Assembly (NCBI GenBank): GCA_000091205.1
Contig: AP006489.2
From: Cyanidioschyzon merolae
Lineage: Eukaryota
Length of the DNA stretch: 64,000 nt
Strand: one strand, 5' to 3'
Position 1 is the first letter of the stretch; each line of letters begins with the position of its first letter. The translations under genes and the position numbers were made by a program. Under the pieces are notes generated by a model that was not told the origin of the DNA, did no database searches, and worked only from the letters and a program-made list of their open reading frames with translations. Below, piece by piece: positions 56,343 to 58,403 of this stretch.

Positions 56343-58403
56343 CTACGATACGGGCGCTGCCGGCACCCCATCCCAATAACGTTGCGCATACGCCTCGAGT
56401 TGCGCCTTCCCAACTCGATCGCAAAAGTCTCCAAAGGACTCGTCCGGCTCGCGTGCGCTTTTCCAGAATACAAACACCGGCTCCAGGACGCGCTCCACCT
56501 GATCGTCCGTCACCCGATCGATATACGGCCACGCGAGGCGCGTCTGCATCGGGCTCCCGCCCAGCCACACCTGATACGTACAATTCGGACCTGATCCGAC
56601 GAATCCCAACTCGGCCATGTACGGACGCGTGCACCCGTTCGGGCATCCAGTCATGCGCATCACGAACGATGCGTGCGGCGAGATGCCGACTTTGGACAGC
56701 AGCTCGCGCACGCGCTGCACGTAGCGCGGCATGACACGCTCCGCCTCCGTGATCGCCGGCGGACACAGCGGCAACGCTGGACACGCCATCGCGTCACGCA
56801 TCAGCGGATCCAGTGCGGATGCTGCCGTCTCGACGCCGAACGACGCCAGCAGCGTCTCGACGTCAGGGCGCGCTGTCGCTGGCACCTGCGTGATGAGAAG
56901 GTTCTGCTGCGGCGTACATACCAGGGGAAAGTTGAAGCGATCCGTTAGGGCACGGAGTGCTTTCTTCAGCTCGTCTTTGATCCGCCCGTTCTGTACGTAG
57001 AGGCCGAAAAACCAGCGTCCGTCTCCTTGCTCGCGCCAACCCAGATAATCCTGGAAAGTCCACGGCGGCATGGAGCGTATCGACTCTAGCGCACTGCCAC
57101 CACCCACCATATACGACTTGACGAGTTCGCGGAATCGATCGATGCCCAGCCGATGCACCAGGTACTTCATCCGGGCGTTCGTGCGAACTGCACGATTGCC
57201 GTGGTCCCGCTGGGCAGCCAAGATCGCTTTGAGTGTGTCGTACAGCGCCGCTGCCGGTACGTACCCCAGCGGATCGGCAGCACGCGCGAAGGTCTCCTCT
57301 TTGTTATGAGTGCGACCCATGCCGCCGCCGACGAGAATATTGGCACCTTCCAGTTGACCCTGCGCATCACAAAAAACGACGATTCCAATGTCGTGTGTGT
57401 AGATGTCGATAGAATTATCCCCGGGAACAGTGACACCAACTTTGAACTTGCGCGGAAGGTACAGCTTTCCGTAAAGCGGCTCGACGGAATCCTGCAGAAC
57501 CTGACCACGCCCGTTATCCTCCGTCATGAGTCGTCGAACTTCGTCCATGTCCAGCTCCTTCTTCCAGTACTCGATGCTGGCGGCAAGCTCCCCATCGAGC
57601 CACAGATCCGCAAACGCGTGCGACTGAATCGCGAACAGCTCTGCCACCATTCTGGCAACGTGTCGTGCCTGCGCATACGCGGCATCGACGAAGGGCGCCG
57701 GCGGCGCGATGACGTTGCGCGAGCAGTCGCCGCTCGCACCATACAGCCCGCCGCCCGCTCGCACGATGCTCTGGACGACGGTTTTCAGATTGGATTTATG
57801 GATGCCGTGGATTTGGAACGAAGAGCGCGTCGTGAGCCGCAGCGTCTTGTTCCCATAGGTTTCACTGATGTCGTCGAGTGTCGTATACAGCGAAGGCGGA
57901 CACTCGCCGGCGGGCATTTTCAGACGGAGCATGAACTGGTATTTCTTGAGCTCCCCGCGAACACGTTGATCTCGGTTATCTTGGAGATATCCGCCATGGA
58001 ACTTGATAAGTCCGATGCAGTCATCGGAGATGAAGATCTGGTCGTTGCCCAGTTCTTCCATTAATGGGTGACGAAGATAGTCCGAGTTCAGTTTCGGCAA
58101 CTCGTATGGATTTAGCTTGAGCTGGTCGAGTGTCCCGTCACGGATTGCTTCCTCGATATGCTTCCGCGTTGTGATCGGCACGACCGTATGCTTCTTCCGA
58201 GACTGTTCAGATGAGAGGTTTGCTATGATGTTCCGCCGGGCGGTTCGGCACTGCCGTTGGCGTCGTAGTCGGTCTCGCAACAGTACCTCGGTCAACGGAT
58301 AAACGCCCGGTGCTGCGGAACCGGTGGGTGCCAAACCTCTGCGAGCGCCGACTAGAGGTTTTGCGTACGTGACGAACATCATCAGAGTATACCGCACGCG
58401 CAA
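56343..58403 (-). CDS. ferredoxin-dependent siroheme/[4Fe-4S] nitrite/sulfite reductase family enzyme. The Cys-cluster motif is SiR-like; cluster context implies a nitrite reductase role.
   Basis: [10 protein letters not shown] ... [30 protein letters not shown] ... [48 protein letters not shown] is typical of plant/algal Fd-NiR/SiR. The metal-site block [32 protein letters not shown] resembles plant SiR ([17 protein letters not shown]...YQIWLGG) more than canonical NiR (CPNSCGQVQVADIGFMG). Confidence 0.85.
   Translation of the reverse strand: [686 protein letters not shown]

What the first reader, a model, noticed from the sequence alone, without database searches (positions are those of the whole stretch)
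56343..58403. The 'nitrite reductase' of the cluster carries a sulfite-reductase-type active-site signature
The siroheme/[4Fe-4S] cysteine cluster reads [32 protein letters not shown]. This pattern ([17 protein letters not shown]...Y-x-W-LGG) is the one I associate with plant-type ferredoxin-sulfite reductases rather than canonical Fd-NiR (CPNSCGQVQVADIGFMG). Yet the gene sits convergent to NR within the NRT2-NR cluster. Established knowledge: in the red alga Cyanidioschyzon merolae a SiR-like enzyme encoded next to NR/NRT functions as the nitrite reductase. If this organism is different, the same recruitment has occurred here. If it is the same organism, this is that locus.
Basis: partly seen in the sequence, partly recalled or inferred. 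Interest (0 to 1): 0.6.

Follow-up and report, generated by a model that had tools for sequence, protein, structure and literature searches.

The report
Known red-alga sulfite-reductase-like nitrite reductase

Summary
The ORF at 56343-58403 (-) exists and carries the quoted motif. The true start is the ATG at 58382, giving 679 aa.

The protein is sulfite-reductase (SiR) type:
- 585 bits to maize Fd-SiR against about 99 bits to plant nitrite reductases (NiR).
- It passes the NCBIfam Fd-SiR equivalog (743 bits, cut-off 731.5) and fails the Fd-NiR model (123 bits, cut-off 594).
- It has the SiR-type K-F-K where NiR has K-W-N.

It lies tail-to-tail with nitrate reductase (NR), next to the nitrate transporter (NRT).

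The organism is Cyanidioschyzon merolae 10D. The transporter, NR, this protein and the downstream biotin-synthesis protein are each identical to consecutive NCBI proteins on the 584,452-bp record. Published CMG018C/019C/021C primers map to the expected positions. This is therefore the known CmSiRB/CmNIR locus (Sekine 2009; Imamura 2010).

- The BioDA-SiRB-NR-NRT arrangement is conserved in Cyanidiococcus and Cyanidium.
- SiRB forms a 100%-bootstrap clade, sister to the SiRA copies of the same family (the Cyanidioschyzon/Cyanidiococcus/Cyanidium group, here called Cyanidiaceae), with Galdieria outside.
- SiRB-specific replacements cluster in the anion-binding loop, the N-terminal segment that clamps it, and next to the Fe-S cysteines.

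Novelty: already known. Interest: low.

The parts
56343..58382 (-). CDS of CMG021C (CmSiRB / CmNIR), 679 aa plus stop. It is a ferredoxin-dependent siroheme/[4Fe-4S] reductase of sulfite-reductase ancestry that acts as the assimilatory nitrite reductase.
   Evidence: ORF. Identical to XP_005535840.1/BAM79554.1 of C. merolae 10D. Start fixed by primer NIR(9)R, and the qPCR primers NIR(1911)F and NIR(2000)R map inside it. Pfam NIR_SIR and NIR_SIR_ferr, two stretches each. TIGR02042 743 bits.
56556..56651 (-). It contains the C-x3-C pair (Cys580, Cys584) of the [4Fe-4S]/siroheme ligands.
   Evidence: Coordinates. Aligned with the maize SiR and E. coli CysI cysteines. The NiR counterpart is TGCPNSCGQVQVADIGFMGC.
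56763..56783 (-). First cysteine pair, C-x5-C (Cys534, Cys540), in [12 protein letters not shown]. Leu-to-Pro right after the second Cys is specific to the SiRB clade; Leu is found in 100% of the other SiRs.
57714..57755 (-). Anion-binding loop [14 protein letters not shown] (residues 210-223), ending at the substrate Arg222 (maize R193, E. coli R153). Other SiRs read GGSTxGACGDxNRN here, so the loop is remodelled in the SiRB clade.
   Evidence: Alignment and clade-specific sites. The role of the loop in E. coli SiRHP (N149-R153) is taken from PMC11947256.
57441..57449 (-). Lys312-Phe-Lys314, the SiR-type K-x-K pair of anion-binding lysines (maize K276/K278). NiR has K-W-N at this position.
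57924..57926 (-). Arg153 in FMLR, the first anion-binding arginine (maize R124, E. coli R83).
58383..59182 (-). The 800-bp upstream region used in the literature as the NIR promoter. It is active in nitrate medium and shut off by ammonium.
   Evidence: Primers NIR(-800)F and NIR(9)R map at 59157-59182 and 58374-58398. Promoter behaviour is from PMC4549557 and PMC8504449.
52254..55109 (+). Nitrate reductase CMG019C, 951 aa. Convergent with the SiRB gene.
   Evidence: Pfam Mo-co, Cyt-b5, FAD and NAD domains. Identical to XP_005535839.1. Primer NR(9)R fixes the ATG at 52254.
49585..51291 (-). Nitrate/nitrite transporter CMG018C (NRT2/NNP family, MFS), 568 aa. Divergent from NR.
   Evidence: Pfam MFS_1. 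Identical to XP_005535838.1 'nitrate transporter'. The NRT primers map here.
51292..52253 (.). 962-bp divergent NRT-NR intergenic region. It lies within both published 800-bp promoter fragments.
   Evidence: Primers NRT(-800)F at 52073-52091 and NR(-800)F at 51454.

Best explanation
The gene is CMG021C of Cyanidioschyzon merolae 10D (chromosome 7), known as CmSiRB or CmNIR.

It encodes a plastid-targeted, ferredoxin-dependent enzyme with a siroheme coupled to a [4Fe-4S] cluster. By descent and by every sequence criterion it is an assimilatory sulfite reductase. In the cell it performs the six-electron reduction of nitrite to ammonium. This replaces the canonical Fd-NiR, which this alga lacks.

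It is transcribed together with the adjacent nitrate transporter and nitrate reductase when ammonium is absent, under the MYB1 regulator.

Shown here: the identity of the locus, the SiR-type sequence and active site, the cluster geometry, conservation of the cluster in two sister genera, and origin by duplication of the family's own SiR.

Taken from the literature: the enzyme activity (high nitrite-reducing, very low sulfite-reducing), nitrate induction, and the absence of a canonical NiR.

Inferred: the shift in substrate preference comes from SiRB-specific replacements. These lie in the anion-binding loop, in the N-terminal segment that clamps that loop and the siroheme, and next to the Fe-S cysteines. 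The four basic substrate ligands themselves are unchanged.
For: Identity:
- The 679-aa product equals XP_005535840.1. NRT, NR and BioDA equal XP_005535838.1, XP_005535839.1 and XP_005535842.1. All are on the 584,452-bp record.
- 10 of 12 published primers match exactly and the other 2 sit at the expected offsets.

SiR type:
- Maize Fd-SiR E = 1.8e-174 (585 bits) against about 86-99 bits for plant NiRs.
- TIGR02042 743.2 bits (cut-off 731.5) against NF007125 Fd-NiR 122.9 bits (cut-off 594).
- R153, R222, K312 and K314 and the four Cys are conserved. The pair reads K-F-K, not the NiR K-W-N.

Function, from the literature:
- CmSiRB has high NiR and very low SiR activity. It is high in nitrate and low in ammonium medium, unlike CmSiRA. 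The genome lacks NII1 (PMC4620153).
- The NIR promoter is nitrate-on and ammonium-off (PMC4549557).
- Induction is abolished in the MYB1 null strain (PMC8962646).
- No typical NiR gene is found in the complete genome (PMC7076501).

Evolution:
- The BioDA-SiRB / NR-NRT arrangement is the same in Cyanidiococcus (L001) and Cyanidium (L002).
- The Cyanidiococcus orthologue is nitrogen-limitation induced (PMC13200283).
- In the NJ tree the SiRB clade has 100% bootstrap. It is sister to the Cyanidiaceae SiRA clade at 90.5%, with Galdieria outside.
- A one-residue insertion (GSGPN-x-xYQ) is shared only by the A and B copies of this family.
- The SiRB stem branch is about three times longer than the SiRA stem, 0.108 against 0.037.

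Clade-specific replacements at sites that are 93-100% conserved in the other 115 SiRs, in maize numbering:
- A96C/S, Q98G, S105G, S183G, A545T.
- C188S, P223L/I and L502P, where the other SiRs are 100% conserved.
Against: - Nothing in the sequence alone says 'nitrite'. The protein passes the curated Fd-SiR equivalog threshold, keeps all SiR substrate ligands, and is still named sulfite reductase in NCBI.
- The two primary papers (Sekine 2009; Imamura 2010) are not held in the library. The functional evidence is cited second-hand.
- The tree is neighbour-joining on 585 columns, not maximum likelihood, and has no NiR outgroup.
- The link between the clade-specific replacements and specificity is untested.
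Confidence: 0.95

Rival explanations
1. It is an ordinary assimilatory sulfite reductase, as NCBI names it. On this view it is a second copy for sulfur assimilation, and its position next to NR is incidental.
For: - It passes the TIGR02042 Fd-SiR equivalog cut-off.
- All four anion ligands and all four Cys are SiR-type.
- It is 49% identical to maize SiR over 569 aligned residues.
Against: - The linkage to NR and NRT is conserved in three genera, which argues against an incidental position.
- A second paralogue, CmSiRA (XP_005534858.1), is the more conservative copy. It scores 774 bits on TIGR02042, has a shorter stem branch, and keeps the C-terminal extension.
- The literature reports very low sulfite-reducing and high nitrite-reducing activity, with nitrate induction.
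Confidence: 0.03
2. It is a physiologically bifunctional enzyme. On this view it reduces nitrite for nitrogen assimilation and also contributes meaningfully to sulfite reduction or detoxification in a sulfur-rich acidic habitat.
For: - The SiR substrate ligands are fully retained.
- SiRs in general have some nitrite activity, and the two families share structure and mechanism (PMC4620153).
- From memory of the Sekine 2009 abstract, sulfite binds more tightly than nitrite and inhibits nitrite reduction.
Against: - Reported sulfite turnover is very low.
- CmSiRA exists for sulfur assimilation and is not regulated by nitrogen source.
Confidence: 0.1
3. It is a divergent member of the canonical Fd-NiR (NirA) family whose cysteine motif merely resembles that of SiR.
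For: None found.
Against: - NF007125 scores 122.9 bits against a cut-off of 594.
- Plant NiR structures match only residues 316-604, at 86-99 bits.
- The pair reads K-F-K instead of K-W-N, and the motif reads CPNGC-T-RPY instead of CPNSCGQVQ.
- In the tree it nests inside the red-algal SiRs.
Confidence: 0

Closest known systems
CmSiRB / CmNIR (CMG021C) of Cyanidioschyzon merolae 10D (Sekine et al. 2009, Biochem J 423:91; Imamura et al. 2010, Plant Cell Physiol 51:707)
   Same: Everything. The sequence is identical, the neighbours are the same, and the published primers map here.
   Different: Nothing. This is that gene.
CmSiRA (XP_005534858.1, chromosome 10), the housekeeping Fd-sulfite reductase of the same alga
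   Same: - Same fold and domains.
- 58% identical.
- Same Cys and Arg/Lys ligands.
- Shares the family-specific one-residue insertion GSGPN-x.
- Sister clade in the tree.
   Different: - SiRA keeps the consensus anion loop GGSTAGACGDINRN, plus FHGTY, CPLA and P223.
- SiRA carries a C-terminal extension of roughly 90 aa. This corresponds to the RHH-like 'CEP' described for red-algal SiRs (PMC4898807), and SiRB lacks it.
- SiRA is not regulated by nitrogen source, according to the literature.
Maize ferredoxin-sulfite reductase (PDB 5H8V)
   Same: - 49% identity over the whole mature protein, E = 1.8e-174.
- Identical substrate ligands (R124, R193, K276, K278) and Cys motifs.
   Different: - Maize SiR prefers sulfite as substrate (established knowledge).
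- SiRB has the loop replacements S183G, T184L, L185Y, C188S and L191C, plus Q98G, S105G, P223I, L502P and A545T.
Canonical plant/cyanobacterial ferredoxin-nitrite reductase (spinach 2AKJ, tobacco 3B0G; NCBIfam NF007125)
   Same: - Same physiological job: nitrite to ammonium, ferredoxin-dependent, with siroheme and [4Fe-4S].
- Same superfamily (Pfam NIR_SIR).
- Often clustered with NR and NRT2 in algae.
   Different: - Only a distant homologue, at 86-99 bits over part of the protein.
- NiR has K-W-N and CPNSCGQVQVADIGFMG.
- SiRB fails the NiR family HMM.
Mycobacterium tuberculosis NirA/SirA (PDB 1ZJ8)
   Same: It is the mirror-image case of a name that does not match the function within this superfamily. 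It was annotated as a nitrite reductase but works as a sulfite reductase. That is established knowledge recalled from memory, not tested here.
   Different: - It belongs to the NirA-like branch, at 87 bits to SiRB.
- The direction of the functional switch is the opposite.

Membership tests
Ferredoxin-dependent assimilatory sulfite reductase (sequence family; NCBIfam TIGR02042) | Whole-protein score above the curated equivalog cut-off | tested here: met
   743.2 bits against a cut-off of 731.5. CmSiRA scores 774 and the Galdieria SiR scores 780.5.
Ferredoxin-dependent assimilatory sulfite reductase (sequence family; NCBIfam TIGR02042) | Two-fold NIR_SIR_ferr plus NIR_SIR domain architecture | tested here: met
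   Pfam PF03460 and PF01077, two stretches each.
Ferredoxin-dependent assimilatory sulfite reductase (sequence family; NCBIfam TIGR02042) | Four Cys ligands, C-x5-C ... C-x3-C, for [4Fe-4S] and the siroheme bridge | tested here: met
   Cys534, Cys540, Cys580 and Cys584 align with the maize and E. coli cysteines.
Ferredoxin-dependent assimilatory sulfite reductase (sequence family; NCBIfam TIGR02042) | Four basic anion-binding residues: R, R, K, K (E. coli R83, R153, K215, K217) | tested here: met
   R153, R222, K312 and K314 are conserved. The E. coli residue list is taken from PMC11947256.
Ferredoxin-dependent assimilatory sulfite reductase (enzyme class EC 1.8.7.1) | Sulfite is the preferred physiological substrate | not testable with these tools
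   The literature says it is not. The enzyme has very low sulfite-reducing and high nitrite-reducing activity (Sekine 2009, as summarised in PMC4620153).
Canonical ferredoxin-nitrite reductase (NirA; NCBIfam NF007125) | Whole-protein score above the curated cut-off | tested here: not met
   122.9 bits against a cut-off of 594.
Canonical ferredoxin-nitrite reductase (NirA; NCBIfam NF007125) | NiR-type active-site motifs: LPRKWN (Asn in place of the second Lys) and CPNSCGQVQVADIGFMG | tested here: not met
   SiRB has LPRKFK and [17 protein letters not shown]. Spinach 2AKJ has the NiR forms.
Canonical ferredoxin-nitrite reductase (enzyme class EC 1.7.7.1) | Reduces nitrite to ammonium with ferredoxin, and is nitrate-induced | not testable with these tools
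   The literature reports this for this exact gene.
SiRB-type SiR-like nitrite reductase of the Cyanidioschyzon/Cyanidiococcus/Cyanidium group | Orthology with CMG021C | tested here: met
   Identical to XP_005535840.1. It is a member of the 100%-bootstrap SiRB clade.
SiRB-type SiR-like nitrite reductase of the Cyanidioschyzon/Cyanidiococcus/Cyanidium group | Physical linkage to NR and the nitrate transporter | tested here: met
   Seen in the window. The same arrangement occurs in Cyanidiococcus (L001) and Cyanidium (L002).
SiRB-type SiR-like nitrite reductase of the Cyanidioschyzon/Cyanidiococcus/Cyanidium group | Clade signature: loop [15 protein letters not shown], CPPA after the second Cys, and no C-terminal RHH extension | tested here: met
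   The signature is defined here from only five sequences, so it is provisional.

The most novel reading that the evidence does not exclude
The published work established what CmSiRB does. Judging only from the second-hand sources available here, it did not establish which residues make a sulfite reductase prefer nitrite.

The most novel reading my data allow has three parts.

- A single duplication of SiR took place in the common ancestor of Cyanidioschyzon, Cyanidiococcus and Cyanidium, after the split from Galdieria (which keeps a canonical Fd-NiR).
- It was followed by a small, identifiable set of replacements. In maize numbering these are the anion-loop changes S183G, T184L, L185Y, C188S and L191C, the clamp changes A96C, Q98G and S105G, then P223L, L502P and A545T, plus loss of the C-terminal RHH tail.
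- These replacements are sufficient to convert SiR into a working NiR without touching the four basic substrate ligands.

If so, this would be a compact recipe for switching specificity in siroheme reductases.
Probability: 0.35. Interest if true: 0.35.

Novelty: already known. Interest (0 to 1): 0.1.

Why it matters
As a discovery it does not matter. The locus, the enzyme's unusual ancestry, its activity and its regulation were published in 2009-2010. Its promoter has been a routine genetic tool in C. merolae since 2015.

It remains a textbook-quality example of non-orthologous replacement inside a metabolic gene cluster. It is also a reminder that homology-based names can hide the real function: NCBI still calls the protein 'sulfite reductase'.

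The small additions made here give a concrete starting point for mutagenesis on what sets nitrite-versus-sulfite specificity in siroheme enzymes. These additions are the conserved synteny in two further genera, the timing of the duplication, and the list of clade-specific active-site replacements.

Tried and rejected
- **Primary papers.** I tried to read Sekine 2009 and Imamura 2010. Neither is held, so their results are cited through papers that summarise them.
- **Literature on discriminating residues.** A search on maize and tobacco residue numbers (Lys276, Lys278, Asn226) found nothing. I instead checked K-F-K against K-W-N directly on PDB sequences.
- **First tree attempt.** It timed out with Biopython's distance calculator. 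I redid it with numpy distances.
- **Joint SiR and NiR tree.** This was not built because no full-length NiR sequences could be fetched cheaply. Curated HMM scores and PDB phmmer scores served as the family test instead.
- **Direct search for a canonical NiR in Cyanidiaceae.** I considered spending the two remaining large protein searches on this and rejected it. Only the top 120 hits are listed, so absence could not be shown, and the complete-genome literature already covers it.
- **A gene between NR and SiRB (a possible 'CMG020C').** No tRNA, no Rfam match, and the two candidate ORFs are not in the protein collection. The NCBI accessions for NR and SiRB are consecutive. I dropped this.
- **Structure prediction.** Not run, because the tool returns no coordinates and distances to the siroheme could not be measured.
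Full report
**1. The observation**

The ORF listing finds a 686-aa ORF at 56343..58403 on the minus strand. Its translation contains the quoted string [32 protein letters not shown]. The ORF as listed starts at a TTG. The real start is the ATG at 58382 (679 aa), for two reasons. The published primer 'NIR(9)R' ends on that codon. The 679-aa product is identical to an NCBI protein. The motif occupies residues 578-609, window 56556-56651.

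**2. SiR type or NiR type?**

- Against all PDB sequences the protein matches maize ferredoxin-sulfite reductase 5H8V at E = 1.8e-174 (585 bits, residues 87-671). It matches E. coli CysI at about 1e-94. Plant nitrite reductases reach only 86-99 bits over residues 316-604.
- With NCBI's curated models it passes the Fd-SiR equivalog TIGR02042 (743.2 bits, cut-off 731.5). It fails the Fd-NiR model NF007125 by a wide margin (122.9 bits, cut-off 594).
- Maize SiR reads [31 protein letters not shown].
- The four basic anion ligands are all present: maize R124, R193, K276, K278, which correspond to E. coli R83, R153, K215, K217 (PMC11947256). In CmSiRB they are R153, R222, K312 and K314. The lysine pair reads LPRKFK as in SiR. 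NiR has LPRKWN.

**3. Which organism and which locus?**

- Exact-sequence look-ups show that the 679-aa protein is XP_005535840.1/BAM79554.1, 'sulfite reductase, ferredoxin dependent [Cyanidioschyzon merolae strain 10D]', on a 584,452-bp record.
- The neighbours are also identical to C. merolae 10D proteins:
  - 49588-51291 (-) is XP_005535838.1, nitrate transporter.
  - 52254-55106 (+) is XP_005535839.1, nitrate reductase.
  - 61035-63440 (-) is XP_005535842.1, the bifunctional biotin-synthesis enzyme.
- Fujiwara et al. 2015 (PMC4549557) give the gene numbers NRT = CMG018C, NR = CMG019C and NIR = CMG021C and list primers for them. Ten of the twelve match the window exactly at the predicted offsets. 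The other two sit at the predicted positions with differences at the 3' end that look like typos in the table.
- The window even begins with CCCCCCATT. I recall this as the reverse complement of the C. merolae telomere unit.

This is therefore the known locus.

**4. What is known about it (literature, not tested here)**

- The review PMC4620153 summarises Sekine et al. 2009:
  - C. merolae lacks a NiR gene.
  - This was deduced from high NiR against very low SiR activity, and from high expression in nitrate and low in ammonium, unlike CmSiRA.
- PMC7076501 states that no typical NiR gene was found in the complete genome.
- The 800-bp NIR promoter (window 58383-59182) is active in nitrate medium and repressed by ammonium. 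It is used as a conditional expression tool (PMC4549557; PMC8504449).
- The two primary papers themselves are not in the library.

**5. What I could add**

(a) Synteny.
- In Cyanidiococcus yangmingshanensis (L001) and Cyanidium caldarium (L002) the closest homologues are P0002 (84% identical) and P0004 (68-69% identical).
- Both sit in the same arrangement: BioDA, SiRB, then convergent NR, then the MFS transporter.
- The Cyanidiococcus orthologue has already been reported as a nitrogen-limitation-induced 'nitrite/sulfite reductase' (PMC13200283).

(b) Phylogeny.
- I built a neighbour-joining tree with 200 bootstraps on 585 columns, rooted on E. coli CysI.
- The five SiRB-like sequences form a clade with 100% support.
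- That clade is sister (90.5%) to the SiRA copies of the same family: CmSiRA XP_005534858.1, Cyanidium CDCA08G2316 and P0144 (names).
- Galdieria and all other red algae lie outside.
- A one-residue insertion (GSGPN-x-xYQ) is shared only by the A and B copies of this family and supports the grouping.
- Galdieria sulphuraria is reported to have a canonical Fd-NIR (bioRxiv 10.1101/454272).
- The simplest history is therefore one SiR duplication, with loss of NiR, after the split from Galdieria.
- The SiRB stem is about three times longer than the SiRA stem, 0.108 against 0.037.

(c) Clade-specific residues.
- I compared the SiRB clade with 115 other SiRs. SiRB differs at sites that are 93-100% conserved elsewhere. 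In maize numbering these are:
  - A96C/S, Q98G, S105G, S183G and A545T.
  - C188S, P223L/I and L502P, where the other SiRs are 100% conserved.
- Together with T184L, L185Y and L191C, these turn the loop GGSTxGACGDxNRN into [14 protein letters not shown].
- This is the anion-binding loop that orders and flips the substrate arginine in E. coli SiRHP. S105 sits next to the Tyr that stacks on the siroheme (PMC11947256).
- L502P and A545T directly follow Fe-S cysteines.
- SiRB also lacks the C-terminal RHH-like extension found in SiRA and other red-algal SiRs (PMC4898807).
- That these changes cause the nitrite preference is my inference. It is untested.

**6. Mechanism**

The enzyme most likely works as any siroheme/[4Fe-4S] reductase does.
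1. Ferredoxin delivers electrons one at a time to the cluster.
2. The cluster passes them through the bridging cysteine to the siroheme.
3. The anion, held by two Arg and two Lys, is reduced by six electrons.

In SiRB the ligands are unchanged. The loop that closes over the anion, and the segments that position it, are remodelled. I propose that this lowers productive turnover of sulfite and raises that of nitrite.

The rivals are weak.
- An ordinary SiR is contradicted by the conserved linkage, by the existence of the more conservative paralogue SiRA, and by the published activities.
- A canonical NiR is excluded.
- A physiologically bifunctional enzyme cannot be excluded from sequence.

**7. 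Verdict**

The finding is already known, so interest is low. The residue list and the timing of the duplication are small, testable additions.

Noticed in passing
window 1-1350: The window starts with CCCCCCATT, the reverse complement of AATGGGGGG, which I recall as the C. merolae telomere unit. About 1.3 kb of AT-rich DNA follows (GC 0.455 in the first 2 kb). The window probably begins at the left end of chromosome 7.
   Followed up: partly
window 1347-5297 (-): A 1316-aa ORF with three parts: a hydrophobic N-terminus, about 870 residues of near-perfect Thr-Pro / Ala-Thr-Pro repeats, and a C-terminal Hint (hedgehog/intein-type) module (Pfam PF01079, 125.7 bits). The repeats are encoded by a 2.5-kb (GGTGTT)n array at 2587-5107, which explains the strong GC and AT skew there. 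The exact sequence is not in the protein collection, so the annotated model must differ.
   Followed up: partly
window 29625-29826: An 84-bp tandem repeat, 2.4 copies, 82% matches, in an intergenic stretch.
   Followed up: no
L002 about 11640-11853 and L001 about 11600-11800: The SiRB orthologue gene models of Cyanidium caldarium and Cyanidiococcus yangmingshanensis stop early. In Cyanidium the missing C-terminus ([13 protein letters not shown]...FGDFCHRVGKAAIEKHAEQYHSVPA) is readable in another frame (ORF 10840-11853). This suggests one-base indels in the assemblies rather than real truncations.
   Followed up: partly
window 56343-58382 (-): NCBI, UniProt and JGI still name this protein 'sulfite reductase, ferredoxin dependent' despite the published nitrite-reductase function. 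It also passes NCBI's own SiR equivalog threshold, so automatic annotation will keep mislabelling the whole SiRB clade.
   Followed up: yes
window 49585-58382: [quoted passage not shown] The actual order is NRT (-), NR (+), SiRB (-), so NR is the middle gene.
   Followed up: yes
window 51454-51474 and 54884-54905: Two of the twelve primers in Fujiwara 2015 Table S1, NR(-800)F and NR(2631)F, lie at the expected offsets but differ from the genome in their last few bases. These are probably transcription errors in the table.
   Followed up: yes
window 55110-56342 and 58383-61031: The NR-SiRB spacer (1,233 bp) and the SiRB-BioDA spacer (2,649 bp) are much longer than in Cyanidium and Cyanidiococcus, where they are a few hundred bp. 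No tRNA or Rfam match was found, and the candidate ORFs are not in the protein collection. The gap in accession numbering (XP_005535841.1) implies one annotated gene between SiRB and BioDA that I did not identify.
   Followed up: partly
P0001, P0121 and P0123-P0129 (cluster of the window protein): Nine further variants of the protein come from JGI, ENA and Logan assemblies, all at 90% identity or more. P0001, the only one compared directly, differs by 4 aa. These look like natural populations or other strains of C. merolae in public metagenomes.
   Followed up: no
window 40650-42032 (-) and L002 19241-20257: An SKA2-domain gene lies a few genes beyond the nitrate transporter both in the window and in Cyanidium. 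Synteny therefore extends past the nitrate cluster.
   Followed up: no
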